Sequence record: PV730300.1
Source: a phage
Direction: 5' to 3' (one strand)
Length of the DNA: 64,000 nt
Position 1 is the stretch's first letter. Every line of letters starts with the position of its first letter. The notes below the pieces were generated by a model. It did not search any database. It was not told where the DNA came from and saw only the letters and a program-made list of their open reading frames with translations. A program made the translations under genes and the position numbers. Below, one piece after another: positions 7,829-64,000 of this stretch.

Positions 7829-7831
7829 TTA

Positions 7832-10885: not shown

Positions 10886-10891
10886 TGGAAC

Positions 10892-10916: not shown

Positions 10917-10946
10917 AATAGAATGGTCTAATGATAGGAGAGATAA

Positions 10947-12971: not shown

Positions 12972-12975
12972 CAGA

Positions 12976-12999
12976 AGCCCCGAAAGGGGCTTTCTTTTT
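12976..12999 (+). terminator. rho-independent terminator
   Basis: AGCCCC-gaaa-GGGGCT hairpin followed by TTTCTTTTT. Confidence 0.65.
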
Positions 13000-13012
13000 A
13001 TGGAGGGTTTAA

Positions 13013-14773: not shown

Positions 14774-14778
14774 GAAAA

Positions 14779-14804
14779 GGAGCCAAATGGCTCCTTTCTT
14801 TTAT
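14779..14804. terminator. bidirectional terminator between convergent gene blocks
   Basis: GGAGCC-aaat-GGCTCC hairpin flanked by A-run upstream and T-run downstream; lies between the plus-strand tail block and the minus-strand replication block. Confidence 0.6.
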
Positions 14805-16196: not shown

Positions 16197-16212
16197 TATT
16201 ATCTCCTCTATA

Positions 16213-16605
16213 TTACATTAATTTTGCACAGAAAGAGCGGAGTCTTTCCATATCATCTTGCTCTAACAGGTATTTACCTTTACCTATTCCAACTCCAATT
16301 TCACCATTAGGAAAATGAACTATTTGCACTGGGAAACCTCCGAGTTTAATTGTGGCAGCTTTGCCTTCTTCGTCTATAACGTTTCGGATTGTATCTTGCA
16401 GTGAAATGAATTCTTTGTTTGTAACAGTGGTTTCAATTATTTCAGATGTTTCAACACGAGCAGTTAGCTTCTTGTTTCCACCTTGAATAACCAAAATTTG
16501 AAAATAAAAAGAGTTGTCAAGACCTACAACATTTTTCTCAACTAGTGTCAAACTGGTATAGTTTCCATAAACAGTTTCAACAGCTATCTTAGAACGTTCA
16601 GTCAT
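16213..16605 (-). CDS. hypothetical protein (130 aa)
   Basis: ORF in co-directional block; no motif recognised. Confidence 0.45.
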   Translation of the reverse strand: MTERSKIAVETVYGNYTSLTLVEKNVVGLDNSFYFQILVIQGGNKKLTARVETSEIIETTVTNKEFISLQDTIRNVIDEEGKAATIKLGGFPVQIVHFPNGEIGVGIGKGKYLLEQDDMERLRSFCAKLM

Positions 16606-16650
16606 TGAATGCTATCCTATCATAAAATGTTTAATATTGTCAAGCTTTAA

Positions 16651-17244
16651 TTACCAAGGAATATCATCTTCTTCCAATCTGGCATCTACTTGAGGTGGAC
16701 GTGGAACCTTAACCTCTTTCACAAAACGAAGATATGGGAAACGTGTAGCAATTTTAATAACATGTTTGGCATCTTCTCTAACATCTTTGTGCAAGAAGCA
16801 GATCCCTGTTTCCAAGGTTGTTTCAAAATCTTTAGAATAATAACAGTCCTTCCCATCAAATGCAGCCTGGCAGATGGACAGATCGAACTCATTTAGAAAG
16901 GTTGTCATTACGCTTGGTTCCATAATCATAAGGTTGCAAAGCTGACCATCACGTTCAAACTCAAAAACGTGTTTAAGACCAGTAACACCTTCATAATTGT
17001 CAGAAGCCTCTTTGTTTCCTAGTTTACGAATATTGGTTCCCATTAAAGCAGATGCAATTAATCCTTGTATTTGTTCTTCAGTCTGATGTGCAGGAAGGGA
17101 TGTATAGAAATCCAGATCACGTCCAGCAATATCAAGAATACGCCAATCACGAACAGCACCGCCAGCCAAGACAGAATTAGGATCAGCGATCTTTAATACG
17201 GTAAGAATCTCTTTGGCAATATTGATTTGTTTTGATTTAGTCAT
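16651..17244 (-). CDS. minimal nucleotidyltransferase-fold protein (197 aa), CCA-adding-enzyme-like head domain
   Basis: LAGGAVRD...DLD matches the GGxVRD / DxD signature of class II tRNA nucleotidyltransferase / poly(A) polymerase heads; C-terminus ends EEDDIPW. Confidence 0.45.
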   Translation of the reverse strand: MTKSKQINIAKEILTVLKIADPNSVLAGGAVRDWRILDIAGRDLDFYTSLPAHQTEEQIQGLIASALMGTNIRKLGNKEASDNYEGVTGLKHVFEFERDGQLCNLMIMEPSVMTTFLNEFDLSICQAAFDGKDCYYSKDFETTLETGICFLHKDVREDAKHVIKIATRFPYLRFVKEVKVPRPPQVDARLEEDDIPW

Positions 17245-17455
17245 TGATACGCTCCACAGTTACTTTTACAACATCGTCCATATTAATCTCATCCCCCAAG
17301 ACCTCAATAACACCTTCCTCATAAAGTCGAGCACATTCTTCCCACACTTCAGCTTCCGTCATTCCACCTGCAATCTTATTTGCAAGACCTTTAATAACAT
17401 CTTCATTTTGTTCATCAACAAGAATTGAAACATTAAAGCTCACTAATTTACGCAT
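17237..17455 (-). CDS. hypothetical protein (72 aa)
   Basis: AAGGAG RBS upstream of ATG; no motif recognised. Confidence 0.45.
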   Translation of the reverse strand: MRKLVSFNVSILVDEQNEDVIKGLANKIAGGMTEAEVWEECARLYEEGVIEVLGDEINMDDVVKVTVERIND

Positions 17456-34962: not shown

Positions 34963-35937
34963 TTAAACAGCAGCTTCTTCTTTTTCAGGGAAGATAAAGC
35001 TTGCAATAACACCCAGAGCTAATGTGCCTAGAACAATCATCAGACTTACGTTAGGGGAAATATCATGCGGGAGGAATGACCACTTGGCATGAAGTGTTTC
35101 ACCGAACGGGTGATACATAAGTTTAGCACCAACAAACACCAGAACCACAGCAACAGCTTTCTCTAAGTGAACCAGATATTTCACAGCTACACTCAACACA
35201 AAGAAAAGTGCACGTAAACCAAGAACAGCCATCAGCATTGCAGAATAAACTAGCAGAGGTTCTTGTGTCACACCGATCACAGCCGGAACTGAATCAAAAG
35301 AGAAGACAATATCTGTAAGCTCAATAACAAACACACAAAGAAGAGCAGGAGTTGCATATTTAATACCATTCTTAATGGTGATGAACTTTTCACCATCCAG
35401 CGCATTGTGCACAGGCAGAACTTTACCTACTAAACGAACAGCCCAATGCTTAGAGTAATCAATATCCTCTTCTTCGTCACCACCTTTGATGATAGCCACG
35501 GCAGACCAAGCTACAATCAAACCGAACAACACTTGGACCGACCAATGAAGGTTAAACAAAGCGGTCCCTGCTGCAACAAAAATACCTCGGAAGACAATGG
35601 CTCCTGCAATCCCCCAAAGTAAAATCTTATGTTGGAGATGTGTACTCTTAATTCCAAAGCTTGCAAAAATTGCCATGAACACCATCAGGTTATCTACAGA
35701 AAGACTCTTTTCCAACACATAGCCACTTAAGAAAAGCGCGGCAAACTCTTTACCATGTTCTACCCAAATGAATGCGTAATATCCTAAAGCTAAAGCAATC
35801 CAAAAAACAGACCAAAGCAAAGCAGATTTAATTCCAATTTCTTTATTCTCTTTATGACCAAAGAAATCGATACCAATAGACAATGCCAAAATACCAACTA
35901 AAACAACTACATCAATAATTGGGAAACCGAGTTGCAT
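34963..35937 (-). CDS. TerC-family integral membrane protein (324 aa)
   Basis: Multiple transmembrane segments and the TerC-type EKSLSVDNLMVF motif; preceded by an early-type promoter-hairpin cassette. Confidence 0.75.
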   Translation of the reverse strand: MQLGFPIIDVVVLVGILALSIGIDFFGHKENKEIGIKSALLWSVFWIALALGYYAFIWVEHGKEFAALFLSGYVLEKSLSVDNLMVFMAIFASFGIKSTHLQHKILLWGIAGAIVFRGIFVAAGTALFNLHWSVQVLFGLIVAWSAVAIIKGGDEEEDIDYSKHWAVRLVGKVLPVHNALDGEKFITIKNGIKYATPALLCVFVIELTDIVFSFDSVPAVIGVTQEPLLVYSAMLMAVLGLRALFFVLSVAVKYLVHLEKAVAVVLVFVGAKLMYHPFGETLHAKWSFLPHDISPNVSLMIVLGTLALGVIASFIFPEKEEAAV

Positions 35938-36013
35938 TCTTTTCTCCTCTCTTTGCGGGGAACTATTCCCCGCTTCATGTGATATATCTTACTCTTTTTA
36001 AGAACTGTGTCAA
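35938..36013 (-). promoter_or_regulatory. early-type promoter-hairpin-RBS cassette driving the TerC gene
   Basis: On minus strand: TTGACA, 16-nt spacer, TAAGAT, ATATCACAT, GCGGGGAA-tag-TTCCCCGC hairpin, AAAGAGAGGAGAAAAGA, ATG; same layout as the 57.6-64 kb cassettes. Confidence 0.6.
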
Positions 36014-56207: not shown

Positions 56208-56355
56208 TATACAAACACTTATCTTTTTCAGTTTGCATCACTAGAATTAGATCTAGGTGGGTTCCTGAAGGTTTACCAATAAGATTAAAGGTTATCTCAA
56301 ATTACCACTACCTGTTATCTCAAAAAATCCCTCAAATTATTTAAACTTTTTAAGA

Positions 56356-56543
56356 ATTTACAAAAGTGAAAGTTGAAAACCAAAATTTAAAGTTTAGGAA
56401 AATTATCTTAAAATGTCAGATACAAAACAAAACTCAAAAGTCAAGGAAAATTTTAAAAATTTTGCGCGCCCACAGTATTTAAAGTTTTTTTGCTTTTACA
56501 AAAATGAAAGTACAAAAGCAAAATTTAAAGTTTACAAAAATTT
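56356..56543. repeat. two copies of a ~45-bp AT-rich direct repeat (about 56356-56405 and 56493-56543)
   Basis: acaaaagtgaaagttgaaaaccaaaatttaaagtttaggaaaatta vs acaaaaatgaaagtacaaaagcaaaatttaaagtttacaaaaattta. Confidence 0.6.
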
Positions 56544-56554
56544 ATGCAGATGGG

Positions 56555-56664
56555 AATGAGAAGAGTTCTCATATGGAAATGCAAATGATAATGATTCGCA
56601 TTTAGGTTTATAAATGAGATTGATTCTTATTTGATAAGGTAAATGATAAGCATTCTCATTTAGA
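56555..56664. repeat. four iteron-like imperfect palindromes, about 27-bp periodicity
   Basis: gaatgagaagagttctcatatgg / aaatgataatgattcgcatttagg / aaatgagattgattcttatttga / aaatgataagcattctcatttaga. Confidence 0.6.
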
Positions 56665-57296: not shown

Positions 57297-57325
57297 GTTG
57301 ACGTTCCCCAGGGGGTAGCGTATTA
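57297..57325 (+). promoter_or_regulatory. sigma70-like promoter with about 135-nt leader for first early-array gene
   Basis: TTGACG, 17-nt spacer containing CCCCAGGGGG, TATTAT. Confidence 0.4.
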
Positions 57326-57461
57326 TTCATCTTGTCGAGGGGGGCGAGGCACAACGACAATAAACAAAAGGCGGGCGCGATGCAGGACGGGCAAAGGTGA
57401 GGATCTCCATAATCCACCGTCCACCAACAAAAAACATCATTCATAACCTGGAATTAAGATC

Positions 57462-57659
57462 ATGGCAACATTGCACATAGTAGCGAAAGCAGGACAAATC
57501 AGCGTAATTGTAAACGGTTTTACTGAATTCAGTCATCCCCAGGATGATCATGAAACGGTTTTATCTTTTATTGATTCCTTGTTAGAAATGGGAGTCATTA
57601 CAGAAGATCAGCACGCTACAAAATGCAAGCGCGTTAATCAAATTGCAGAAATAGAATAA
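57462..57659 (+). CDS. early small protein (65 aa)
   Basis: ORF ends 6 nt before the next cassette -35. Confidence 0.5.
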   Translation: MATLHIVAKAGQISVIVNGFTEFSHPQDDHETVLSFIDSLLEMGVITEDQHATKCKRVNQIAEIE

Positions 57660-57665
57660 AAAGTA

Positions 57666-57746
57666 TTGACAACGTTTTTTAATCTGATAAGATGTATCAC
57701 ATAGGGCGGGAAATGGTTTCCCGCCCACAATAGAAGAGAAATCATC
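57666..57746 (+). promoter_or_regulatory. early promoter-hairpin-RBS cassette 1
   Basis: TTGACA-16-TAAGAT, GTATCACAT, GGGCGGGAAA-tgg-TTTCCCGCCC hairpin, AGAAGAGAAATC, ATG. Confidence 0.65.
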
Positions 57747-57899
57747 ATGGCATCATATAGCGCAACAATGATCGTAGCTGGCATCACTGGTAAACCTATG
57801 AGCGGTGGCGGATCTTTCGCTAATATCAATATCGACGGACGTTTATCCCTGGACGCAGCGATCGCCATTGCACGGGATACATTCAAAAAAAGAATGTAA
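57747..57899 (+). CDS. early small protein (50 aa as written; probably continues to 58020 in the +1 frame)
   Basis: ATG defined by cassette 1; ends just after an A7 run (57885-57891); +1 frame stays open to 58020, immediately before the next cassette. Confidence 0.45.
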   Translation: MASYSATMIVAGITGKPMSGGGSFANINIDGRLSLDAAIAIARDTFKKRM

Positions 57900-58023
57900 A
57901 TTCAACAAACAAAATTATCTCGGTTTTGCTATTGAAAAAACCGCGCGTTTTGTGGATTATAAAAGCCCGAAAATGGTTGATACTACACTAAAAGCGCAAG
58001 ATGTAGCGTTTTTGCTTTAAGGC

Positions 58024-58096
58024 TTGACGCTAACGAATAATTTGTTAATATGTTACATAACGCGGGAATAGTTCCCGCTGTTTGTAAGGTGATACA
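58024..58096 (+). promoter_or_regulatory. early promoter-hairpin-RBS cassette 2 (diverged)
   Basis: TTGACG-16-TAATAT, GTTACATAA, GCGGGAA-tag-TTCCCGC hairpin, ATG. Confidence 0.55.
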
Positions 58097-58354
58097 ATGT
58101 TTTACATCAAATTAAAAGGTCACGTTATCGCGTTCAAGGATAAAGCTTTTTACCGGTTAGCTAAATATGCTTTGATCCATCCTCATTATGTTTACATAAG
58201 GGGGCGCGATGAGATAAATATCTTTGATCAAACAACATGCGAAAACATCGAGATCCGCAAGGTTGGCGTACGTGATTATCGTACATCTTTCTACCCTTGC
58301 AAGGATTCCGCAAGTCTTTTTAAGGTGTGCCGATTATTGAAAAAAGGTGGGTAA
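58097..58354 (+). CDS. early small protein (85 aa)
   Basis: ORF defined by cassette 2. Confidence 0.5.
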   Translation: MFYIKLKGHVIAFKDKAFYRLAKYALIHPHYVYIRGRDEINIFDQTTCENIEIRKVGVRDYRTSFYPCKDSASLFKVCRLLKKGG

Positions 58355-58355
58355 T

Positions 58356-58925
58356 ATGGGCCGCGAATATGTGATCCAAACCTGGGTAAAACATGAAGCA
58401 GATGATCCGCGCATCATTCCCGATCATCTTGTCGATGAATCCACGGGCTATAGCGGGGAGCAAATAGGCAACAGATTAGCACGCAGTAACGGCAACGTAA
58501 AAGCGCGCTATGTGCGCCCTGGTTGGCTGGCGAATGGTACCGCTGATTTATCCAGTGCGGAAGATACGAGCGACGGCGCGAAAGATAATCCCTTGTACAA
58601 AATTGATCCGGCTTTTCGTGTCCTGGATGAATATCCCAGCAAGATAGCGGCGCTCGATCAGGCCCTGGAAAGTAAGCGCATCACCTGGACCGCTTACAAC
58701 ATGGCAAAAAACGTACTTGATGGTAAGCTGATCCAGGCTGAAAGGAAATTAGCCAAAATTGCAGCCATAGCCCAGGAGGAAGACGAGGAAACAACGGAAG
58801 AGGAAGAGTACGAAGAGATCCCGCCGTTGTTGTGTGTTGATGCTTTTCCTGATTATCAACCGACAGAGGAAGAAAAAAGGATCGCCCTAGAAAACTTTGA
58901 AAATATTATTGACAACATTTTTTAA
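58356..58925 (+). CDS. early protein (189 aa), acidic C-terminal region
   Basis: ATG 2 nt after upstream stop with GGTGGG RBS; C-terminal codons (IIDNIF) are the -35 and spacer of the next cassette. Confidence 0.5.
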   Translation: MGREYVIQTWVKHEADDPRIIPDHLVDESTGYSGEQIGNRLARSNGNVKARYVRPGWLANGTADLSSAEDTSDGAKDNPLYKIDPAFRVLDEYPSKIAALDQALESKRITWTAYNMAKNVLDGKLIQAERKLAKIAAIAQEEDEETTEEEEYEEIPPLLCVDAFPDYQPTEEEKRIALENFENIIDNIF

Positions 58926-58991
58926 TCTGATAAGATGTATCACATAGGGCGGCGGAATGGTCCACCGCTCAAAACAGAAGAGAGAAAAATC
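58909..58991 (+). promoter_or_regulatory. early promoter-hairpin-RBS cassette 3
   Basis: TTGACA-16-TAAGAT, GTATCACAT, GGCGG...CCGC hairpin with AATGG loop, AACAGAAGAGAGAAAAATC, ATG. Confidence 0.65.
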
Positions 58992-59237
58992 ATGAAACAC
59001 TTATCATCTATCACCAACCACAATGAAATTTTCGTTAATGAAAAAGGTTTCGCCTGGATTCAGTTAAAAGAGATGAAAAATAACCGTCATGTAACGGTTG
59101 TTCGTAAAATTAAAAGCAAGCCTTTTAGTAACTTCTCGATTGATACCGTGCGGATCAAGAATGAAGAATACTTGATCGATAGTCAAATCACTTGGAGCTT
59201 AACGGCATCAGCCGCCGCGCCATATTTCGCAAACTAA
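58992..59237 (+). CDS. early small protein (81 aa)
   Basis: ATG set by cassette; track ORF starts upstream inside the promoter and is over-extended. Confidence 0.5.
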   Translation: MKHLSSITNHNEIFVNEKGFAWIQLKEMKNNRHVTVVRKIKSKPFSNFSIDTVRIKNEEYLIDSQITWSLTASAAAPYFAN

Positions 59238-59247
59238 GAAAAAACGT

Positions 59248-59327
59248 TTGACACTGTTTAAAGTTCTGTTATAGTTTATCACGTAGGGCGGCAATGGTGC
59301 CGCCAACAATGAAAAAAGGTTATCATC
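59248..59327 (+). promoter_or_regulatory. early promoter-hairpin-RBS cassette 4
   Basis: TTGACA-16-TATAGT, TTATCACGT, GGCGGCA-atgg-TGCCGCC hairpin, AAAAAAGG, ATG. Confidence 0.6.
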
Positions 59328-59693
59328 ATGGCTATTAATATCAATGTTTCCTCTTATGCTACCCTGGCTGACACGGCTAAAATCGAATTATCTAGCATTG
59401 AGGCGGTGCATATTAGCGCCCGCCGCTGGTTTCAAAAGTCTTATGGTAATACTTATTTCTCTTTGATGGTTGACGTTGAGATCGGCGGTAAACTGATCGA
59501 GGTGGTTAACGTTCCGTTTCAATATGGCTATGGTGATCATTTTGATACCGTTGCCCTGGAAGAGTTTAGCAAGGTTGTTAATATGGAAGGTAAAGAGTTT
59601 TCGCGCGGCGCGTATCTTTCCCGTTTTTGCCGTGACAATGGGATCACTGTATACAGTCATGCAAGCGATGTTAAACGTAAAAAAGATCTATAA
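59328..59693 (+). CDS. early protein (121 aa)
   Basis: ORF defined by cassette 4. Confidence 0.5.
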   Translation: MAININVSSYATLADTAKIELSSIEAVHISARRWFQKSYGNTYFSLMVDVEIGGKLIEVVNVPFQYGYGDHFDTVALEEFSKVVNMEGKEFSRGAYLSRFCRDNGITVYSHASDVKRKKDL

Positions 59694-59699
59694 AAAGCA

Positions 59700-59781
59700 T
59701 TGACAGCACGAATAAAAAGAGTAAACTGTATTACATCAAGGCGGCGGAATGGTCCACCGCCTAACAAAGAGAGAAATAAAA
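59700..59781 (+). promoter_or_regulatory. early promoter-hairpin-RBS cassette 5
   Basis: TTGACA-16-TAAACT, GTATTACAT, GGCGG...CCGCC hairpin with AATGG loop, AACAAAGAGAGAAATAAAA, ATG. Confidence 0.6.
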
Positions 59782-59964
59782 ATGGCTAAATGCACTATCT
59801 GCAAAAAAGAAATAGTATTAGTTCCAAGTGCAAGTGAACGCGCCGCGCGTTTCGGTGGGAAAGCGTCAGACTACACGAAAATGTTTACTACTCATGCAGA
59901 TTGCCAGGTGGCAAAACGTTCACAAGAAAGCATAGAATTAATGCGTAAACTTTCCAAAAAATAA
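59782..59964 (+). CDS. early small cysteine-containing protein (60 aa)
   Basis: CTIC...HADC; ATG set by cassette. Confidence 0.5.
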   Translation: MAKCTICKKEIVLVPSASERAARFGGKASDYTKMFTTHADCQVAKRSQESIELMRKLSKK

Positions 59965-59966
59965 TA

Positions 59967-60049
59967 TTGACAAAGTATCTTATTACTATATAATGTTTTA
60001 CATAGGGCGCGGGAATAGTTCCCGCCCCACTGAAAAAGAGAGAAAAATC
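59967..60049 (+). promoter_or_regulatory. early promoter-hairpin-RBS cassette 6
   Basis: TTGACA-16-TATAAT, GTTTTACAT, GCGGGAA-tag-TTCCCGC hairpin, AAAAAGAGAGAAAAATC, ATG. Confidence 0.65.
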
Positions 60050-60289
60050 ATGGCTAAATCTAAAATGTACAACGGTCACAAAAACAAAACTCATTGGAAT
60101 GTAAGCCTTTGGATTAATAACGATCCAGGTTTTTATAATATGGCAAAAGAATTTATAGCCGTGAACAACAATAAAGATAACGCCGCGCGTGAAATGATGT
60201 CACTACTTAACGAAATGGGCCAAAATACTACGCCAGATGGCTATAAATTCAGCAAAACCAGTATCCGCGCCGCTATGGTAGGAATGTAA
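60050..60289 (+). CDS. early small protein (79 aa)
   Basis: ATG set by cassette. Confidence 0.5.
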   Translation: MAKSKMYNGHKNKTHWNVSLWINNDPGFYNMAKEFIAVNNNKDNAAREMMSLLNEMGQNTTPDGYKFSKTSIRAAMVGM

Positions 60290-60298
60290 TAAAAGCAG

Positions 60299-60380
60299 TT
60301 GACAACGTTTTTTAATCTGGTAAAGTGTATCACATAGGGCGGGAAATGGTTTCCCGCCAAATGAAAGAAAGGTTATCATT
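60299..60380 (+). promoter_or_regulatory. early promoter-hairpin-RBS cassette 7
   Basis: TTGACA-16-TAAAGT, GTATCACAT, GGCGGGAAA-tgg-TTTCCCGCC hairpin, ATG. Confidence 0.65.
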
Positions 60381-60608
60381 ATGGCTATCGTTATTGTTCG
60401 CGTATCCGGCACGGTTGGAATCTCCCAGGTAGTAGCAGTTATCACCGAGAAGAAAGGGGATGATCTTCACTCCTCCTTGAATAGCTGGGCGGTCGCTAAC
60501 TTTGGGCAATGGTCGAGCGTTGAGTACATCGAATCCTACCAGGTGCCAACGATTAGCCTGACCGATCTCAACGTTGATCGTCTGTTATGCCTGGATGAAT
60601 TAATCTGA
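60381..60608 (+). CDS. early small protein (75 aa)
   Basis: ORF defined by cassette 7. Confidence 0.5.
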   Translation: MAIVIVRVSGTVGISQVVAVITEKKGDDLHSSLNSWAVANFGQWSSVEYIESYQVPTISLTDLNVDRLLCLDELI

Positions 60609-60617
60609 AAAAGATTG

Positions 60618-60698
60618 TTGACACGGGAAAGAAAAAGAGTAAACTGTATTACGTAGGGCGGCAATAGTGCCGCTCATAACAGAAGAGAGATTATCACG
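60618..60698 (+). promoter_or_regulatory. early promoter-hairpin-RBS cassette 8
   Basis: TTGACA-16-TAAACT, GTATTACGT, GGCGGCA-atag-TGCCGC hairpin, AACAGAAGAGAGA, ATG. Confidence 0.6.
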
Positions 60699-60914
60699 AT
60701 GGCTAATATCCGCACACTGTTAAAAAATGCAAAGCAAGTTTTATTTTCAGATGACGAATATTTCAATAAAGACATTACGGGCGTAAAAAATCTTAAAGAT
60801 GTGAAAGATGTGATAGGTATTCGCGGATCTTTACGTAAAGGTGACACATGCGGTAACAAGGTGCAATATAAATTAGATCAGTTTTATGATTTTACTTTGA
60901 CAATTATTTCATAA
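60699..60914 (+). CDS. early small protein (71 aa)
   Basis: ORF defined by cassette 8. Confidence 0.5.
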   Translation: MANIRTLLKNAKQVLFSDDEYFNKDITGVKNLKDVKDVIGIRGSLRKGDTCGNKVQYKLDQFYDFTLTIIS

Positions 60915-60920
60915 AACTAC

Positions 60921-61005
60921 TTGCAAACCTGGTAAAATAAAGTAAACTATATTCATCAAGGCGGTGGAATAGCCCACCGCCTAACAAAGAGAAGAGGAAA
61001 ATATC
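60921..61005 (+). promoter_or_regulatory. early promoter-hairpin-RBS cassette 9
   Basis: TTGCAA-16-TAAACT, TATATTCAT, GGCGGTGG...CCACCGCC hairpin, AACAAAGAGAAGAGGAAAA, ATG. Confidence 0.6.
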
Positions 61006-61176
61006 ATGATCACTTTCGCTACCCGTGAAGCCGCTCGCAACGTTGCACGTAAAGTTAACGCCGCCAACCTGGGCGCTACGCTTAAAGCACCGGTGAAAGA
61101 TGAATCAGGAAAATGGATCTTTCCTGGTCTGCATCACGCTGATAAGCTGGGAACATTAACGCTAAAAAATAAATAA
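61006..61176 (+). CDS. early small protein (56 aa), not in ORF track
   Basis: ATG set by cassette 9; ends 8 nt before the next -35. Confidence 0.45.
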   Translation: MITFATREAARNVARKVNAANLGATLKAPVKDESGKWIFPGLHHADKLGTLTLKNK

Positions 61177-61183
61177 TATCCGC

Positions 61184-61260
61184 TTGACAGTAGCATCATT
61201 TATAAGTAAAGTAACAACAACGGCGGGAAATGGTTTCCCGCTCAAAAAGAGAGAAAAACC
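61184..61260 (+). promoter_or_regulatory. early promoter-hairpin-RBS cassette 10
   Basis: TTGACA-17-TAAAGT, GGCGGGAAA-tgg-TTTCCCGC hairpin, AAAAAGAGAGAAAAACC, ATG. Confidence 0.6.
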
Positions 61261-61614
61261 ATGAAAGCACAAAATGCAATTAAAGAGTACATCCTTGCCG
61301 CTATTGATTATAGCGAGTATGGCATCACGGAAGAGAAAGAGAAGATCGCGGAATTGATGCGCTGTTTTAATTCCGAATACTGGTACCCTGATAATCAAAA
61401 ACGGTACGATCATAGTATTATTAAAGCAATAGCATCATGGTTACAAGGTTTGCCATCAAATATTAATATCGCTTTCGAGTATTGGGAAGTAGATCGGTTG
61501 TTAACATCCTGGGGATACATTACAGAGAATAGCAGAGACGATAAAATCCAACGAGAAAGGGAAAATTATTGGCTTTATATTGCAGGCGTGATCCTTGCTT
61601 GCTCTTATGAATGA
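61261..61614 (+). CDS. early protein (117 aa)
   Basis: ORF defined by cassette 10. Confidence 0.5.
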   Translation: MKAQNAIKEYILAAIDYSEYGITEEKEKIAELMRCFNSEYWYPDNQKRYDHSIIKAIASWLQGLPSNINIAFEYWEVDRLLTSWGYITENSRDDKIQRERENYWLYIAGVILACSYE

Positions 61615-61620
61615 TAAACC

Positions 61621-61693
61621 TTGACAATTTTACAAAACAGTTTAAATTAATAATATAGCGGCAATGGTGCCGCTCATATAAAGAGGAAACAAA
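61621..61693 (+). promoter_or_regulatory. early promoter-hairpin-RBS cassette 11
   Basis: TTGACA, AT-rich -10 region, GCGGCA-atgg-TGCCGC hairpin, AAAGAGGAAAC, ATG. Confidence 0.5.
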
Positions 61694-61840
61694 ATGAATA
61701 CATCTAATCGCGCAGAAAAAATCCAATCTTCCAAGATCCGCAAGGCCTGGAACGAGGAAGTGATCCGCAAAGGCGACAAGCGCAATAAAACAAAGCGCGG
61801 GAAGAGTGACAAATATAATTGGATGGATTTAGAGGATTAA
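61694..61840 (+). CDS. early small basic protein (48 aa), not in ORF track
   Basis: ATG set by cassette 11; followed by a terminator. Confidence 0.45.
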   Translation: MNTSNRAEKIQSSKIRKAWNEEVIRKGDKRNKTKRGKSDKYNWMDLED

Positions 61841-61847
61841 CATAACA

Positions 61848-61874
61848 AGGGCGCAAATAGCGCCCTTTCTTTTT
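61848..61874 (+). terminator. rho-independent terminator inside the early array
   Basis: AGGGCGC-aaata-GCGCCCT hairpin followed by TTCTTTTT. Confidence 0.65.
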
Positions 61875-61895
61875 ACATGCAGAGGATAAACAAAG

Positions 61896-62081
61896 ATGAC
61901 TTTAAACGAGCTTAAAACAGCCTACAACGCAACATTAAAAATAGCCGTGCATTACCGTGATGAATATGGTTTTATCACGCAGGGCGTGATCCTGGGCTTT
62001 TCTGACGATGGTTTGATCTATGTTGATGCACATTATAACAAGGTAAAACCTGAAAACGTCATTAGCATAAAATATCTTTAA
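61896..62081 (+). CDS. early small protein (61 aa)
   Basis: GAGGA RBS; the only array gene with a terminator rather than a cassette upstream. Confidence 0.45.
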   Translation: MTLNELKTAYNATLKIAVHYRDEYGFITQGVILGFSDDGLIYVDAHYNKVKPENVISIKYL

Positions 62082-62087
62082 AAGTGG

Positions 62088-62166
62088 TTGACACCATAAC
62101 CGGACCTGTTAAACTGTATTACATCAGGCGGGGAATAGTTCCCCACCATACAAAAAGGTAAATATT
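62088..62166 (+). promoter_or_regulatory. early promoter-hairpin-RBS cassette 12
   Basis: TTGACA-16-TAAACT, GTATTACAT, GGGGAA-tag-TTCCCC hairpin, AAAAAGG, ATG. Confidence 0.6.
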
Positions 62167-62373
62167 ATGATCACCGCAAAACAAGAGAAAATCATTATCG
62201 ACGTTGCAGCCGTTGCCGCTATTGCTATTATTGGATCTTATTATGATACCCGTTTCCCGTCGGCTATGCATGAGATCGCCGCCGTTGCATCAGTTGGCGT
62301 ACTGTTTTACGTTGGTAAACGCTATTTATCACCAATGATTAACAAGCTGACACCGTGGAAAAATAAAGGTTGA
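62167..62373 (+). CDS. early small membrane protein (68 aa)
   Basis: Hydrophobic helices (IIIDVAAVAAIAIIG, AAVASVGVLFYVG). Confidence 0.5.
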   Translation: MITAKQEKIIIDVAAVAAIAIIGSYYDTRFPSAMHEIAAVASVGVLFYVGKRYLSPMINKLTPWKNKG

Positions 62374-62445
62374 TCCTGTTTTATATTGTGTTATAGTTAT
62401 CGTGTAGGGCGGCAATGGTGCCGCGCCCCCTTTGAGGATGCAATC
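62370..62445 (+). promoter_or_regulatory. early promoter-hairpin-RBS cassette 13 (diverged -35)
   Basis: TTGATC-16-TATAGT, TATCGTGT, GGCGGCA-atgg-TGCCGC hairpin, ATG. Confidence 0.5.
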
Positions 62446-62730
62446 ATGAGTAAAGCTAACACCGTGCTAATGTTTTCCCTGATTAATGATCCCGCTTACT
62501 TGTCCAACATGACGCAGGAGGGTAACACATTAACGGCAACATTCACCAATAAGCTTGACCGAGTGATCATCATCTCACTGAAAACAGTTGGTAAAGGCTT
62601 TTACTCGTTAGCTTATCATTGGATCACTGATACCGATGAGACAAGCCAGGACTATAGCGCCCCATTCCCTGAATCAATGGCGCGGGAGATCATCGCCGCC
62701 GTTGTAAATGATGGTTTGTTTACTGCATAA
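62446..62730 (+). CDS. early protein (94 aa)
   Basis: ATG set by cassette; track ORF over-extended into the promoter. Confidence 0.5.
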   Translation: MSKANTVLMFSLINDPAYLSNMTQEGNTLTATFTNKLDRVIIISLKTVGKGFYSLAYHWITDTDETSQDYSAPFPESMAREIIAAVVNDGLFTA

Positions 62731-62745
62731 AAATTTAGAAAAGGC

Positions 62746-62825
62746 TTGCAATAATTTTGAGATAGTGTATATTTAATTCATAGGGCGGCGGGAATAGTTC
62801 CCAAAGCAAACGAGAGGATTACACG
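62746..62825 (+). promoter_or_regulatory. early promoter-hairpin-RBS cassette 14
   Basis: TTGCAA-16-TATATT, GGGAA-tag-TTCCC hairpin, AACGAGAGGATTACACG, ATG. Confidence 0.5.
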
Positions 62826-62945
62826 ATGAGCAAGTACACAGTAGAATACACGGTAGAAAATCCGGCAGTATCCGAAGGTAAAAAGATGACATTTGCCATC
62901 AGTATAATCGCTTTCGTTGTCACTATCTTATCAATCATCTTATAA
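62826..62945 (+). CDS. early small membrane protein (39 aa), not in ORF track
   Basis: ATG set by cassette 14; C-terminal hydrophobic helix FAISIIAFVVTILSIIL. Confidence 0.4.
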   Translation: MSKYTVEYTVENPAVSEGKKMTFAISIIAFVVTILSIIL

Positions 62946-62955
62946 GGTGCACACC

Positions 62956-63117
62956 ATGAAAACAACAAATATTATCAAAGAGATCGCCCTTGCCGCTGGC
63001 GTTGAGATCGAGGAAGTGATCGCGCTCAATCTTACAGAAAACGATCTGCGCAACTATGAAACGGAAAGCGTGAAAGCGAGCGGCGCGGTCCTGGCATATA
63101 ATCCGGCTAACAAGTAA
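62956..63117 (+). CDS. early small protein (53 aa, start at internal ATG)
   Basis: AAGGTG RBS before ATG at 62956. Confidence 0.4.
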   Translation: MKTTNIIKEIALAAGVEIEEVIALNLTENDLRNYETESVKASGAVLAYNPANK

Positions 63118-63126
63118 GGGCGCAAC

Positions 63127-63333
63127 ATGTTAAGCAATGCAGACAAGAAAAAGATCCAGGCACTGGTAAAGCGTCAACGGTTGGCAAAAAAGGCGGTAAA
63201 AGTTAGTTTGCAACGTGTAATAGACGGAATCATCACAGCAAGCGAACAAGCCGACAACATGCAATATAACAGCAAGCCGCTTAACCTGGTTTGCAGTAGT
63301 CCGGCAAGTAATATTATTTACGCGACACGTTAA
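63127..63333 (+). CDS. early small protein (68 aa)
   Basis: ORF coupled to upstream gene; ends 6 nt before the next -35. Confidence 0.45.
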   Translation: MLSNADKKKIQALVKRQRLAKKAVKVSLQRVIDGIITASEQADNMQYNSKPLNLVCSSPASNIIYATR

Positions 63334-63339
63334 AAAGTA

Positions 63340-63415
63340 TTGACAAGCTGAATCAACCTAATAAGATGTATCACATAGGGGCGACAAGCGCCCCGCCTAA
63401 CAGAGAGATAGAATC
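63340..63415 (+). promoter_or_regulatory. early promoter-hairpin-RBS cassette 15
   Basis: TTGACA-16-TAAGAT, GTATCACAT, GGGGCG-acaa-GCGCCCC hairpin, AACAGAGAGATAGAATC, ATG. Confidence 0.6.
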
Positions 63416-63694
63416 ATGACCATCGCCAAATTATCCGCCGAAGAAATCGAACAAGTGTTAACTACTAACCTGGAACAATGGAAACGTGAGGCAGATATAC
63501 AATCAGCACAACGGCTTAACGAGAAGTTAACACCGGATGATCTGAGTAAGATTATAGATCCTCAATTCTATGAAGATATTCACGACACCGTTTTAAGCGT
63601 CGAGGATGTACTTGATAAGCATTACATTGCTACTGATTTGCAGGTTTACGGGCGTAAAAACTTTATCACTATTCACGACATTTACAATAATTAA
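63416..63694 (+). CDS. early protein (92 aa)
   Basis: ORF defined by cassette 15. Confidence 0.5.
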   Translation: MTIAKLSAEEIEQVLTTNLEQWKREADIQSAQRLNEKLTPDDLSKIIDPQFYEDIHDTVLSVEDVLDKHYIATDLQVYGRKNFITIHDIYNN

Positions 63695-63704
63695 AGGCGC
63701 TAAC

Positions 63705-63815
63705 ATGAATCCGAAAGACATGCAAGCCTGGAAAGGGTATGATGATCTAAGCGCCTTGCGCAATAAGTCCAGCCGTAACCTTAGACGATTGAAAGCAAAG
63801 AAAAAGAAAAAATAG
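63705..63815 (+). CDS. early small basic protein (36 aa, start at internal ATG)
   Basis: ATG after AAAGG; Lys-rich C-terminus; ends 1 nt before the next -35. Confidence 0.35.
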   Translation: MNPKDMQAWKGYDDLSALRNKSSRNLRRLKAKKKKK

Positions 63816-63816
63816 T

Positions 63817-63893
63817 TTGACAAGTCCGCTTAATCTGGTAATATGTATCTTGTAGGGCGGCAATGGTGCCGCTCACAAGAAGAGAGAAAAATC
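63817..63893 (+). promoter_or_regulatory. early promoter-hairpin-RBS cassette 16
   Basis: TTGACA-16-TAATAT, GTATCTTGT, GGCGGCA-atgg-TGCCGC hairpin, AAGAAGAGAGAAAAATC, ATG. Confidence 0.6.
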
Positions 63894-64000
63894 ATGAAAA
63901 TCACAAAAAGCCTAACTAATTATGCAGCACGTCGCGGATTATGTTTAACCGTTGAAAACTTAGGGAAAGAAGACTTTTTGTGTTTTTGGGAGCTTGAAAA
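63894..64000 (+). CDS. early small protein, 3'-truncated by window end
   Basis: ATG set by cassette 16; ORF open to the last base of the window. Confidence 0.45.
   Translation, partial: MKITKSLTNYAARRGLCLTVENLGKEDFLCFWELE

What the first reader, a model, noticed from the sequence alone, without database searches (positions are those of the whole stretch)
57297..64000. Array of small genes each driven by a near-identical promoter-hairpin-RBS cassette (PeSL-like)
From 57.6 kb to the window end, 16 copies of a conserved ~80-bp cassette occur at 200-450 bp spacing: -35 TTGACA, 16-nt spacer, -10 TAAGAT/TAAACT/TATAAT, then GTAT(C/T)ACAT, a GC-rich hairpin (7-10 bp stem) with an AATGG or AATAG loop, a purine-rich AACAGAAGAGAGAAAAATC ribosome-binding region and the ATG. 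Each drives one to three small ORFs (36-189 aa) that end within a few nucleotides of the next -35; some C-termini are encoded by the next promoter. The hairpin sits at or just after the predicted transcription start and lacks a U tract, so it is a 5'-leader structure, not a terminator. The same cassette also occurs on the minus strand before the TerC gene, and the promoter type recurs at the 50.3-kb divergent promoter, which suggests the cassette is a mobile regulatory unit. This is like the promoter-early-stem-loop elements described in T4-type phages, but this phage has T7-like replication genes. The small proteins have no recognisable domains and are candidates for host takeover or anti-defence.
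Basis: seen in the sequence. Interest (0 to 1): 0.85.

Follow-up and report, generated by a model that had tools for sequence, protein, structure and literature searches.

The report
Repeated promoter-hairpin cassettes driving phage early genes
A coliphage (phAPEC8-type) puts the same small control unit (strong host-type promoter, RNA hairpin at the transcript start, ribosome site) in front of some 16 tiny genes of unknown function, and comparison with other phages shows these units are the seams where such genes are gained, lost and swapped, even between unrelated phage families.

Summary
Sixteen + strand cassettes lie between 57666 and 63896, and one - strand copy precedes TerC at 36013. Each has TTGACA, a 16-17-nt spacer, TAnnnT, about 10 nt (often GTATYACRTAG), a GC hairpin, a purine-rich RBS and ATG. 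Shuffled sequence gives 0-2.

The window is a Phapecoctavirus, a ~150-kb phAPEC8-like myovirus. In a complete relative the cassette occurs only in the homologous ~10-kb array and before TerC.

The hairpin starts 8-12 nt after the -10 element, so it lies in the transcript. It has no U tract, varies in stem sequence and length while staying paired, and leaves the RBS unpaired. The best reading is a standard early-gene expression cassette with a 5'-terminal, probably stabilising, stem-loop. This is untested.

Relatives lacking a gene carry one chimeric cassette. The promoter half follows the upstream gene and the hairpin/RBS half follows the downstream gene. One module (59734-60003) matches a jumbo Asteriusvirus at 86% nt, with both junctions at the start-site motif TTACAT.

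It works like T4-type PeSLs in gene shuffling but differs in anatomy. The 2012 phAPEC8 record already annotated the hairpin, as a "PHIRE promoter". Verdict: a new variant of a known kind, of moderate interest.

The parts
57298..57326 (+). First promoter of the array (TTGACG-17-TATTAT). No cassette hairpin in this phage. It drives ORF 57462-57659.
   Evidence: The orthologous promoter in tuntematon and phAPEC8 is followed by GTAGGGCGGCAATGGTGCCGCTC. Window 57328-57448 is a replacement leader shared with ECO340P1, ECO340P2 and PsgM04F and is not structured.
57666..57749 (+). Cassette 1: TTGACA-16-TAAGAT (TG), GTATCACATA, hairpin 57704-57726 (10 bp), RBS, ATG 57747
   Evidence: -19.5 kcal/mol, z -4.6
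58024..58099 (+). Cassette 2: TTGACG-16-TAATAT, hairpin 58062-58078, ATG 58097
   Evidence: z -3.0. This is the only cassette hairpin followed by a T-rich tail (TGTTTGT).
58909..58994 (+). Cassette 3: TTGACA-16-TAAGAT, hairpin 58947-58970 (with one C.A mismatch), ATG 58992. The upstream ORF stops inside the spacer at 58925.
59248..59330 (+). Cassette 4: TTGACA-16-TATAGT, hairpin 59287-59304, ATG 59328
59700..59784 (+). Cassette 5: TTGACA-16-TAAACT, hairpin 59739-59762, ATG 59782. The promoter half is native. The hairpin/RBS half belongs to the imported gene-9 module.
59967..60052 (+). Cassette 6: TTGACA-16-TATAAT (12/12 consensus), hairpin 60005-60028, ATG 60050. The promoter half is of the Asteriusvirus type (imported). 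The hairpin/RBS half is native to gene 10.
60299..60383 (+). Cassette 7: TTGACA-16-TAAAGT, hairpin 60338-60358, ATG 60381
60618..60701 (+). Cassette 8: TTGACA-16-TAAACT, hairpin 60656-60675 (contains a G.U pair), ATG 60699
60921..61008 (+). Cassette 9: TTGCAA-16-TAAACT, hairpin 60959-60982 (9 bp, 6-nt loop), ATG 61006
   Evidence: -18.7 kcal/mol, z -5.7
61184..61263 (+). Cassette 10: TTGACA-17-TAAAGT, hairpin 61222-61242, ATG 61261
61621..61696 (+). Cassette 11: TTGACA-16-TAAATT, hairpin 61657-61674, ATG 61694
61847..61875 (+). The only canonical intrinsic terminator in the array (AAGGGCGCAAATAGCGCCCTT + TCTTTTT), located after the gp1.1-like gene
62088..62169 (+). Cassette 12: TTGACA-16-TAAACT, hairpin 62127-62147, ATG 62167
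62370..62448 (+). Cassette 13: TTGATC-16-TATAGT, hairpin 62409-62424, ATG 62446. The upstream stop codon lies inside the -35.
   Evidence: (z only -0.1)
62746..62828 (+). Cassette 14: TTGCAA-16-TATATT, degenerate hairpin 62790-62802 (3' arm eroded), ATG 62826
   Evidence: -7.8 kcal/mol, z -0.5
63340..63418 (+). Cassette 15: TTGACA-16-TAAGAT, hairpin 63378-63394 (GGGGCG-ACAAG-CGCCCC, a different type), ATG 63416
63817..63896 (+). Cassette 16: TTGACA-16-TAATAT, hairpin 63855-63874, ATG 63894. Its ORF runs off the window.
35935..36013 (-). Isolated cassette copy in front of the TerC-like membrane protein gene (TTGACA-16-TAAGAT, hairpin 35955-35973)
   Evidence: z -4.8. It is conserved at the same place in tuntematon (39267+; gp093 TerC).
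57462..57659 (+). ORF, 65 aa
   Evidence: phrog_23268, unknown function
57747..58020 (+). Gene 4. It is frameshifted here by one extra A in an A-run (50-aa ORF 57747-57899). Relatives encode 90 aa.
58097..58354 (+). ORF, 85 aa
   Evidence: phrog_17947
58356..58925 (+). ORF, 189 aa, with no cassette of its own (coupled to the previous ORF)
   Evidence: phrog_16605. No PDB relative.
58992..59237 (+). ORF, 81 aa, a variable module. Among the Stephanstirmvirinae records listed it is seen only in nepoznato, phiWec181 and PsgM04F.
   Evidence: phrog_10124. Homologues of 70-76% aa identity lie near the start of several T7-like Kayfunavirus records. Gene map.
59328..59693 (+). ORF, 121 aa
   Evidence: phrog_6246
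59782..59964 (+). ORF, 60 aa (Cys-x2-Cys ... Cys). It is absent from all 8 relatives compared and is 95% aa identical to Asteriusvirus A4_298.
60050..60289 (+). ORF, 79 aa
   Evidence: Pfam DUF7249 at 7e-14; phrog_871
60381..60608 (+). ORF, 75 aa
   Evidence: phrog_13850
60699..60914 (+). ORF, 71 aa. It is absent from phage nieznany, which carries a chimeric cassette at that position.
   Evidence: phrog_12266
61006..61176 (+). ORF, 56 aa
   Evidence: phrog_13689
61261..61614 (+). ORF, 117 aa
   Evidence: phrog_11100
61694..61840 (+). ORF, 48 aa, a homologue of T7 gene 1.1 protein
   Evidence: Pfam PF08200 Phage_1_1 at 5e-13
61896..62081 (+). ORF, 61 aa, downstream of the terminator, with no cassette
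   Evidence: phrog_25271
62167..62373 (+). ORF, 68 aa
   Evidence: phrog_30003
62446..62730 (+). ORF, 94 aa
   Evidence: phrog_10737
62826..62945 (+). ORF, 39 aa, small membrane protein
   Evidence: phrog_10979, 'membrane protein'
62956..63117 (+). ORF, 53 aa, no cassette
   Evidence: phrog_35944
63127..63333 (+). ORF, 68 aa, no cassette
   Evidence: No PHROG or Pfam hit
63416..63694 (+). ORF, 92 aa. It is 87% aa identical to Asteriusvirus A4_297, which in A4 sits directly upstream of the gene-9 homologue.
   Evidence: phrog_14947
63705..63815 (+). ORF, 36 aa, no cassette
   Evidence: phrog_31652

Best explanation
The region is the accessory early-gene array of a Phapecoctavirus (phAPEC8-like myovirus). 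Almost every small gene, or short gene group, has its own standard expression cassette.

(1) A near-consensus sigma-70 promoter, often with a TG extended -10 and an A-rich upstream tract that holds the previous stop codon. Host RNA polymerase is inferred to read it directly after infection.

(2) A conserved start-site segment, (G/T)TAT(C/T)AC(A/G)T.

(3) A GC-rich stem-loop of 6-10 bp that begins about 2-5 nt after the predicted +1.

(4) A purine-rich, pyrimidine-poor leader that keeps the ribosome-binding site and ATG single-stranded.

The most likely role of the hairpin is that of a 5'-terminal stem-loop. It would shield the short monocistronic early mRNAs from 5'-end-dependent decay (RppH and RNase E) and insulate the ribosome-binding site from upstream sequence in read-through transcripts. 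This role is inferred, not shown.

Because the same unit is repeated every 260-890 nt, it also provides short homology for recombination. Crossovers fall between the -10 and the hairpin. The evolutionary module therefore runs from one start site to the next: hairpin, RBS, gene(s), stop, next promoter. Such modules are deleted, inserted and exchanged among Phapecoctavirus and Justusliebigvirus. At least one was exchanged with a jumbo Asteriusvirus that uses the same cassette grammar.
For: Anatomy and non-randomness
- There are 16 + 1 copies, against 0-2 in shuffles.
- The consensus promoters are independently called.

Restriction to one region
- In the complete tuntematon genome, cassettes occur only at 7208-17426 (the array homologue) and before TerC.

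Hairpin in the transcript, at a fixed distance
- The core stem starts 8-12 nt after the -10 element.
- Folding from the assumed +1 places a hairpin of -11 to -19.5 kcal/mol at nt 3-6. The RBS and ATG are unpaired in 14 of 17 copies. z is -2.5 to -5.7 in 15 of 17.

Structure rather than sequence
- There are 72 distinct hairpins in 150 cassettes.
- At the same depth in the stem, C-G, G-C and U-A pairs all occur.
- Spacing between the GGCGG and CCGCC arms varies from 8 to 12 nt.
- Loops differ in Vequintavirus slur16 and Asteriusvirus A4 although the position is the same.
- The sense-strand RNA folds better than the antisense in 68 versus 23 unique segments.

Not a terminator
- There is no U tract, and A+G makes up 78% of the 10 nt after the stem.
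- The phage uses a canonical terminator where it needs one, at 61847.
- The hairpin never occurs after a gene that lacks a following promoter.

Recombination
- HSP ends against 8 relatives cluster in cassettes.
- nieznany lacks gene 60699-60914, and its single cassette equals the promoter half of c60618 plus the hairpin half of c60921.
- All 7 relatives that cover this junction (phAPEC8 does not) lack gene 59782-59964 and carry the promoter half of c59700 plus the hairpin half of c59967.
- The promoter half tracks the upstream gene (identity 0.86 versus 0.69). The hairpin/RBS half tracks the downstream gene (0.83 versus 0.68).
- Window 59731-60056 aligns to Asteriusvirus A4 at 86% nt identity. 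Homology starts at TTACATCAAGGCGG and ends at TTTACAT of the next promoter.
- That imported promoter type occurs once in the window, and an exact-match search did not find it in the Phapecoctavirus loci.
- The promoter halves of c57666, c58909 and c60299 are 89-97% identical including the spacer, which indicates recent copying.
Against: - No transcript 5' ends, expression timing or half-lives are available. +1 is predicted only from the -10 position.
- Two of 16 hairpins are weak or degenerate (c62370, c62746), and the 57298 and 50305 promoters work without one, so the hairpin is not obligatory.
- AAT[A/G]G is present in 100 of 133 Stephanstirmvirinae copies. This could mean sequence-specific recognition rather than a purely structural role.
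- Both G.U pairs (which favour sense RNA) and a recurrent C.A mismatch (which would be G.U in antisense) occur. The copies are related by descent, so the sense/antisense statistic is not a clean test.
- Breakpoints at cassettes are partly expected for any viable gene replacement. BLAST also extends into paralogous cassettes.
- The SLS of a PeSL without an obvious U tract behaved as a strong terminator in a reporter (PMC2839356), so some attenuation cannot be excluded.
Confidence: 0.6

Rival explanations
1. The hairpins are terminators or attenuators, or 3'-end protective barriers, for transcripts coming from the upstream cassette, as proposed for PeSL stem-loops. They would limit the build-up of read-through along the array. 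After processing, they could protect the 3' end of the upstream mRNA from exonucleases, as REP elements do.
For: - Each hairpin lies about 40-60 nt after the previous stop codon and is stable, at -11 to -19.5 kcal/mol.
- The PeSL SLS reduced lacZ expression as strongly as rrnB T1 in a reporter (PMC2839356).
- The c58024 hairpin is followed by TGTTTGT.
Against: - No U tract. T count in the 8 nt after the stem is 0-1 in 109 of 150 copies and never above 4, and the following 10 nt are 78% purine.
- The hairpin lies inside the transcript of its own promoter, so an efficient terminator would abort its own gene.
- Its distance to the -10 is fixed at 8-12 nt, which a 3'-end element would not need.
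- Genes not followed by a promoter have no such hairpin. One has a canonical terminator instead, at 61847.
- A 3'-protective side role is not excluded and could coexist with the main explanation.
Confidence: 0.15
2. The hairpin is a sequence-specific binding site in RNA for a phage or host factor that co-regulates the whole early array. Possible roles include timed shut-off, translational repression, processing or antitermination.
For: - The apex motif AAU(A/G)G is present in 100 of 133 Stephanstirmvirinae cassettes while the lower stems vary.
- A similar apex, GAAAUGGUUC or GAAUAGUUC, appears in some Asteriusvirus copies.
- One common site in front of about 30 genes would allow coordinated control.
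Against: - Other loops occupy the same position (ACAAG, UAC, GUGGU, AAUAAG, ACGG). slur16 has 0 of 4 copies with the motif and A4 has 2 of 7.
- Motif sharing can be explained by common descent and demonstrated exchange.
- There is no boxA-like element and no Rfam family.
- No candidate RNA-binding protein was identified.
Confidence: 0.15
3. The element acts on DNA. It could be a palindromic operator for a dimeric repressor overlapping +1, a cruciform that stimulates recombination, or, as annotated in phAPEC8, a phage-specific promoter found by PHIRE.
For: - The sequence is a perfect or near-perfect inverted repeat placed where operators commonly sit.
- The phAPEC8 record labels the 20-mer GTAGGGCGGCAATGGTGCCG as 'putative promoter determined with PHIRE'.
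- Crossovers map next to it.
Against: - The distance between the two arms varies from 8 to 12 nt and the arm sequence varies with compensatory changes. That fits a folded strand, not a fixed-geometry dimer site.
- The sense strand folds better than the antisense.
- The element always follows a full sigma-70 promoter at fixed spacing and precedes the RBS by 15-25 nt, so a second promoter there is unnecessary.
- No phage RNA polymerase is annotated in the relatives.
- Crossovers fall between the -10 and the hairpin, not within it.
Confidence: 0.07

Closest known systems
PeSL (promoter-early stem-loop) cassettes of T4-type phages RB49/phi1, PST and nt-1 (Arbiol et al. 2010, PMC2839356; Comeau et al. 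2014, PMC4122927)
   Same: - Strong sigma-70-like early promoter with an AT-rich upstream tract containing the previous stop codon.
- An associated GC stem-loop.
- SD and ATG at the 3' end.
- Dense arrays in a hyperplastic region of small genes of unknown function.
- Chimeric cassettes at gene indels between close relatives, implying recombination between neighbouring cassettes.
   Different: - In PeSLs the stem-loop sits in varied positions upstream of the start site: between -35 and -10, over a box, in the AT tract, or just before +1. It is interpreted as a terminator.
- Here it sits at a fixed place after the predicted +1, in the 5' UTR, with no U tract.
- The host phages are not T4-type.
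- Crossovers here concentrate in the -10-to-hairpin segment.
- Mini-circles have not been looked for.
5'-terminal stem-loop mRNA stabilisers in E. coli (ompA 5' UTR; Emory, Bouvet and Belasco 1992; synthetic 5' hairpins of Carrier and Keasling). Cited from my own knowledge.
   Same: A stable hairpin within a few nucleotides of the 5' end, followed by an accessible RBS. Stem sequence is free to vary as long as pairing is kept.
   Different: - No half-life data exist here.
- The element is mass-produced in front of about 30 phage genes and doubles as a recombination seam.
- There is a preferred apex sequence within one subfamily.
phAPEC8 GenBank annotation (NC_020079): 'putative host dependent promoter determined with MEME' and 'putative promoter determined with PHIRE'
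   Same: These are the same sequences. The 39-nt MEME feature runs from just upstream of the -35, through the -10, to ACAT. The 20-nt PHIRE feature is the hairpin.
   Different: The record treats the hairpin repeat as a separate (phage) promoter. It does not describe a composite cassette, a 5' hairpin, or a role in gene shuffling.
Early promoter arrays of rV5-like phages (Kropinski et al. 2013, PMC3606486, Table S4)
   Same: The same kind of consensus sigma-70 promoters in front of small early genes. Orthologous promoters (P168, P174, P185) are followed by GC hairpins in slur16.
   Different: The paper lists promoters and U-tract terminators only. The promoter-proximal hairpins are not noted.

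Membership tests
PeSL (T4-type promoter-early stem-loop cassette) | Strong sigma-70-like early promoter with an AT-rich tract upstream of -35 that holds the upstream stop codon | tested here: met
   TTGACA-16/17-TAnnnT with 9-12 of 12 matches. An A-rich tract with the stop codon lies 1-15 nt before the -35 in 14 of 16 copies.
PeSL (T4-type promoter-early stem-loop cassette) | Stem-loop placed within or upstream of the promoter (between or over the -35 and -10 boxes, in the AT tract, or just before +1), so that it is present only in read-through transcripts | tested here: not met
   The core stem starts 8-12 nt after the -10 hexamer in all copies, downstream of the predicted +1. PeSL positions are taken from PMC2839356.
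PeSL (T4-type promoter-early stem-loop cassette) | Shine-Dalgarno sequence and start codon at the 3' end of the element | tested here: met
   A purine-rich RBS and ATG lie 15-25 nt after the hairpin.
PeSL (T4-type promoter-early stem-loop cassette) | Clustered in hyperplastic regions next to small genes of unknown function | tested here: met
   The cassettes are restricted to the ~10-kb array plus TerC in a whole genome. The genes have PHROG hits of unknown function. Gene content varies among relatives.
PeSL (T4-type promoter-early stem-loop cassette) | Recombination between cassettes creates indels with a single chimeric cassette | tested here: met
   Alignments A2 and A3, the half-cassette analysis and the cross-family module.
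PeSL (T4-type promoter-early stem-loop cassette) | Stem-loop acts as a transcription terminator or attenuator; mini-circles form during infection | not testable with these tools
   This needs reporter assays, Term-seq and inverse PCR. The sequence lacks a U tract.
Intrinsic (rho-independent) terminator | GC-rich hairpin immediately followed by a U-rich tract | tested here: not met
   T count in the 8 nt after the stem is 0-1 in 109 of 150 copies and at most 4. Only c58024 passes the terminator scan. The true terminator at 61847 passes.
5'-terminal stabilising stem-loop (ompA type) | Hairpin begins within about 0-4 unpaired nt of the transcript 5' end | tested here: inconclusive
   The feature is met if +1 lies 7-8 nt after the -10, leaving 2-5 unpaired nt. 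The start sites are not mapped.
5'-terminal stabilising stem-loop (ompA type) | Function depends on pairing, not on stem sequence | tested here: met
   72 distinct hairpins, compensatory pair changes and variable stem length. Unrelated stems occupy the same position in slur16 and A4.
5'-terminal stabilising stem-loop (ompA type) | Prolongs mRNA half-life in an RNase E/RppH-dependent way | not testable with these tools
   Requires decay measurements.
Lambdoid nut site (boxA + boxB) | boxA motif upstream of a 5-bp hairpin with a purine-rich pentaloop | tested here: not met
   No [C/T]GCTCTT[T/A]A in the array. The loops are UAG, UGG or AUGG, and the stems are 6-10 bp.
Any curated RNA family (Rfam 15) | Match at the gathering score | tested here: not met
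   No hits at gathering score over the window. Only two chance-level hits at E 0.36 and 0.86 in the array.

The most novel reading that the evidence does not exclude
Large E. coli myoviruses of at least four lineages share one regulatory grammar: a sigma-70 promoter, a TTACAT-type start site, a 5' GC hairpin and a purine-rich RBS. The lineages are Phapecoctavirus, Justusliebigvirus, Vequintavirus and the jumbo Asteriusvirus. On this reading the grammar works as a common plug-and-play interface. Start-site-to-start-site modules (hairpin, RBS, gene, next promoter) are exchanged across families by recombination at the very short conserved start-site segment, so that any incoming gene arrives already fitted for early expression. 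This would be an integron-like gene-capture system without an integrase, convergent with T4-type PeSLs. A further possibility is that the conserved hairpin apex is read by a shared factor.
Probability: 0.35. Interest if true: 0.65.

Novelty: new variant of a known kind. Interest (0 to 1): 0.5.

Why it matters
If the reading is right, it extends the PeSL idea (regulatory cassettes as seams for modular gene shuffling) beyond T4-type phages. The architecture here differs in that the hairpin is part of the mRNA.

It also defines the unit of exchange precisely, from one transcription start to the next, and gives a concrete case of transfer between a 150-kb phage and a 350-kb phage.

Three practical consequences follow:
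- It corrects an annotation that has been in the phAPEC8 record since 2012, where the hairpin is labelled as a promoter.
- It offers a compact natural part (promoter, protective 5' hairpin, unstructured RBS) for phage engineering.
- It marks about 30 small early genes per genome as a rapidly exchanged pool in which to look for host-takeover or anti-defence functions. These phages are widely used in therapy collections.

Tried and rejected
- RNAalifold on a MAFFT alignment of 16 leaders gave no structure, because MAFFT did not register the 3' arms of stems of different length. Pair statistics were therefore computed per hairpin in Python. No covariance model was built.
- Rfam at gathering score and at E <= 1 gave nothing meaningful.
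- The G.U versus C.A strand test was ambiguous on inspection. Type A hairpins carry G.U and type D carry C.A. The energy comparison favours the sense strand, but the copies are not independent.
- PDB sequence searches with four array proteins found no relatives. Pfam gave only DUF7249 and Phage_1_1, so protein function stays open.
- The 120-nt replacement leader after the 57298 promoter was folded and is not structured (z +1.3).
- A lambda-type nut site was rejected: no boxA and the wrong loops.
- The N4-type hairpin promoter and 'PHIRE promoter' readings were rejected, because a full sigma-70 promoter always precedes the hairpin and no phage RNA polymerase is annotated.
- Literature searches for a description of this cassette in phAPEC8, Phapecoctavirus, phi92, rV5 or Asteriusvirus found none in the held library. 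The phAPEC8 genome announcement itself is not held.
- Large collection scans (IMG/VR, metagenomes) were not run, because the annotated phage collection answered the distribution question.

Full report
**What the window is.** Megablast of the flagged region and of 34-58 kb places the window in the genus Phapecoctavirus (Stephanstirmvirinae). These are phAPEC8-like myoviruses of about 150 kb. The conserved part is 95-97% identical to EF1-1, SF1-1, ECO340P1 and others. The flagged region, by contrast, is covered only 50-85% by the 25 best-matching records, in 5-11 pieces. The annotated relative tuntematon carries a family-A DNA polymerase and a primase/helicase.

**Checking the observation.** Reading the sequence, extracting the copies in register and aligning them confirms 16 + strand cassettes, with -35 boxes at 57666, 58024, 58909, 59248, 59700, 59967, 60299, 60618, 60921, 61184, 61621, 62088, 62370, 62746, 63340 and 63817. 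One - strand copy has its -35 at 36013, in front of the TerC-like gene.

- The independent promoter scan calls them as TTGACA-16-TAnnnT, with one 17-nt spacer, and 8 have a TG extended -10.
- A strict composite scan (promoter plus a GC hairpin 6-16 nt after the -10) finds 16 sites in the window: 13 of the array copies, the TerC copy and two chance sites. Markov-2 shuffles give 0-2.
- Corrections: spacing is 263-885 nt. 'Near-identical' is true only of subsets, with 62% mean column identity overall and 89-97% among the promoter halves of c57666, c58909 and c60299. c63340 has a different hairpin, and c62746 has an eroded one.
- The promoter at 57298 lacks the hairpin here, but its orthologue in tuntematon and phAPEC8 has it.
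- The 50305(-) promoter is of the same type without a hairpin.
- Two ORFs end inside the next promoter, at 58925 and 62373.

**Where else the cassette occurs.** In the complete tuntematon genome the composite scan finds cassettes only at 7208-17426, which is the array homologue of about 10 kb, and before TerC. The window therefore holds roughly the first two thirds of the array.

- The array is present in every Phapecoctavirus examined and in Justusliebigvirus alia.
- The same design sits in front of small early genes of the rV5-like Vequintavirus slur16 and of the 355-kb jumbo Asteriusvirus A4. That design is a sigma-70 promoter, about 10 nt, a GC hairpin, a purine-rich RBS and ATG, with different stems and loops.

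**Prior knowledge.**

- The phAPEC8 RefSeq record already carries two features over these sequences. One is a 39-nt 'putative host dependent promoter determined with MEME', running from just upstream of the -35 through the -10 to ACAT. The other is a 20-nt 'putative promoter determined with PHIRE', which is the hairpin, for example GTAGGGCGGCAATGGTGCCG. The repeat has thus been on record since 2012, with the hairpin read as a promoter.
- The rV5 paper lists the promoters and U-tract terminators but not the promoter-proximal hairpins.
- I found no paper in the held library that describes the composite cassette in these phages.
- Rfam has no matching family.

**Anatomy of the hairpin.** The core stem begins 8-12 nt after the -10 hexamer. 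If +1 lies 7-8 nt after the -10 (the A or G of ACAT/ACGT), the RNA starts AUAGGGCGG... or AUCAAGGCGG... and the stem begins after 2-5 unpaired nucleotides.

- Folding the 17 predicted leaders gives a single 5' hairpin of -11 to -19.5 kcal/mol in the 15 strong copies, with z of -2.5 to -5.7 against dinucleotide shuffles. The RBS and ATG are unpaired in 14 of the 17. The exceptions are c62370 (z -0.1) and c62746 (z -0.5).
- Across 12 sources I collected 150 cassettes with 72 distinct hairpins.
- Within Stephanstirmvirinae there are about six types. They share the base GGCGG/CCGCC but differ inside. At the sixth pair C-G, G-C and U-A all occur. Stem length is 6-10 bp, loops are 3-6 nt, and the distance between the two arms is 8-12 nt.
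- This pattern fits a folded strand. It does not fit a fixed-geometry protein operator.
- Sense RNA folds better than antisense in 68 of 93 unique segments, against 23 the other way (mean 1.1 kcal/mol, Wilcoxon 2e-6). The copies are related, and both G.U pairs and a C.A mismatch occur, so this is supportive only.

**Not a terminator.** The 8 nt after the stem contain 0-1 T in 109 of 150 copies and never more than 4. The next 10 nt are 78% purine.

- The terminator scan passes only c58024 among the cassette hairpins. It does pass the one canonical terminator in the array, 61847-61875.
- This hairpin type never follows a gene that lacks a following promoter, namely those ending at 58354, 61840, 62945, 63117 and 63694.
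- Together with the fixed spacing to the -10, this ties the hairpin to the start of a transcript rather than the end of one.

**The genes.** Twenty of the 21 complete ORFs match a PHROG family. Nineteen of those families have unknown function, and one is a 39-aa membrane protein.

- Pfam adds only DUF7249 (60050-60289) and Phage_1_1, the T7 gene 1.1 protein (61694-61840).
- Four proteins searched against PDB sequences gave nothing.
- The 81-aa gene at 58992 has homologues of 70-76% aa identity near the start of several T7-like Kayfunavirus records.
- These are therefore real, widely shared small genes, presumably early, and their functions are open. 'Host takeover or anti-defence' remains a guess.

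**Cassettes as recombination seams.** BLAST of the array against eight relatives breaks into blocks. The block ends fall at 58914, 59317-59328, 59791, 59988-59994, 60289-60291, 61172 and 61211-61250, all inside or at the edge of cassettes, and at 63332. A few fall at plain gene boundaries, 63116-63129 and 63694.

- A gene-family map shows a conserved backbone with single modules present or absent between cassettes. Some modules, families 25 and 26, sit at different places in Justusliebigvirus.
- Two clean cases were aligned. Phage nieznany lacks gene 60699-60914. Its single cassette is identical to c60618 up to ...TAAACTGTATTAC and to c60921 from ATCAAGGCGG onward.
- All seven relatives that cover this junction lack gene 59782-59964. 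Their cassette is c59700 up to ...GTATTACAT and c59967 from the hairpin onward.
- Across all pairs of cassettes from different genomes, the promoter half is conserved with the upstream gene (0.86 when that gene is shared and the downstream gene differs, 0.69 in the reverse case). The hairpin/RBS half is conserved with the downstream gene (0.83 versus 0.68).
- The module boundary is therefore the short segment between the -10 and the hairpin, which is the start site.

**A cross-family exchange.** The 60-aa product of 59782-59964 is 90-95% identical to proteins of jumbo Asteriusvirus phages (A4, PBECO4 and others) and of some Justusliebigvirus. At the DNA level, window 59731-60056 matches A4 at 86%.

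- In the alignment, homology begins exactly at TTACATCAAGGCGG. It runs through the hairpin, RBS, gene and stop codon, and then through the whole next promoter TATTGACAAAGTATCTTATTACTATATAATGTTTTACAT, where it stops.
- That promoter type is the standard one of A4. It occurs exactly twice and in close variants several more times within 8 kb.
- It occurs only once in the window, at c59967. The exact 28-mer is absent from the other loci.
- The simplest reading is import of one start-site-to-start-site module from an Asteriusvirus-like donor.
- The same 8 kb of A4 holds homologues of four further window genes in a different order, including an 87% aa match to 63416-63694.

**Mechanism, with shown and inferred steps.**

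- Shown by sequence: the composite anatomy, its restriction to one gene array plus TerC, the structural conservation of the hairpin, the absence of a U tract, the accessibility of the RBS in predicted folds, and the chimeric and imported cassettes.
- Inferred: that host RNA polymerase starts 7-8 nt after the -10 early in infection. Also inferred is that the hairpin stabilises the mRNA by hindering RppH and RNase E access, following established work on ompA-type 5' stem-loops (my own knowledge), and that it insulates the RBS. A further inference is that recombination uses the phage or host homologous recombination machinery on very short homology.
- A secondary role as a 3' barrier or mild attenuator for upstream read-through, or recognition of the common AAU(A/G)G apex (100 of 133 copies) by a factor, cannot be excluded.

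**Comparison with PeSLs.** The cassette works like a PeSL as an early promoter unit and as a shuffling seam. It fails one defining anatomical feature. PeSL stem-loops lie upstream of +1 in varied positions and are interpreted as terminators. Here the stem-loop lies at one fixed position in the 5' UTR. I therefore file it as a new variant of a known kind, not as a PeSL member.

**Verdict.** Novelty is moderate, because the repeat was already annotated and the concept is known from T4-type phages. The added value is threefold: the 5'-leader architecture, the precise module boundary, and the cross-family exchange. Interest is scored 0.5.

Noticed in passing
window 56333-56663: Just upstream of the array lies a roughly 1.3-kb stretch without convincing genes. 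It holds several families of direct repeats: three 29-nt-spaced units each containing a small inverted repeat (AATGAGAAGAGTTCTCAT...), a 72-nt pair 138 nt apart, and three 29-nt A-rich units. Relatives annotate 'repeat_region' at the corresponding place (tuntematon 18062-18140, alia 76984-77251). This could be an origin or a regulatory region between divergent transcription units.
   Followed up: no
window 57747-58020: The first cassette-driven gene is frameshifted relative to the 90-aa gene of tuntematon and ECO340P1 by one extra A in an A-run (CAAAAAAAG versus T-AAGAAAG at about 57884-57892). This leaves a 50-aa ORF. It may be a pseudogene, a homopolymer sequencing error, or slippage.
   Followed up: partly
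window 57328-57448: The leader after the first array promoter is a G-rich replacement of about 120 nt, shared with ECO340P1, ECO340P2 and PsgM04F. In tuntematon, phAPEC8, SKA64 and nieznany the standard hairpin stands there instead. The replacement is not predicted to be structured (z +1.3).
   Followed up: partly
window 61694-61875: A 48-aa homologue of T7 gene 1.1 protein (Pfam PF08200) is followed directly by the only canonical intrinsic terminator of the array. The next gene (61896) has no cassette.
   Followed up: partly
window 58992-59237: This 81-aa variable gene has homologues of 70-76% aa identity near the start of several T7-like Kayfunavirus records, and weaker ones in N4-like phages. 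It is a small gene shared across very different coliphage families.
   Followed up: partly
L012 (Escherichia phage A4, ON286972.1 14514-22693): The Asteriusvirus early promoters carry a conspicuous repeated AGTACT (ScaI-site-like) motif in the spacer and nearby (TTGACAAAGTATCTTAGTACTGTATAAT, and also 'cagtact' upstream). Its meaning is unknown.
   Followed up: no
L009 (SKA64) cassette at locus position about 8513: One hairpin, GGGCGGCACTATTGCCGCCC, is the exact inverse (reverse complement) of the common GGCGGCAATAGTGCCGCC type. This looks like an inversion of the palindrome core.
   Followed up: no
Hit tables: Several records labelled as Campylobacter, Pseudomonas, Acinetobacter or Klebsiella phages are near-identical to these coliphages (for example PsgM04F and vB_AbaM_ABPW7). 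This suggests host mislabelling or contamination in the deposited records.
   Followed up: no
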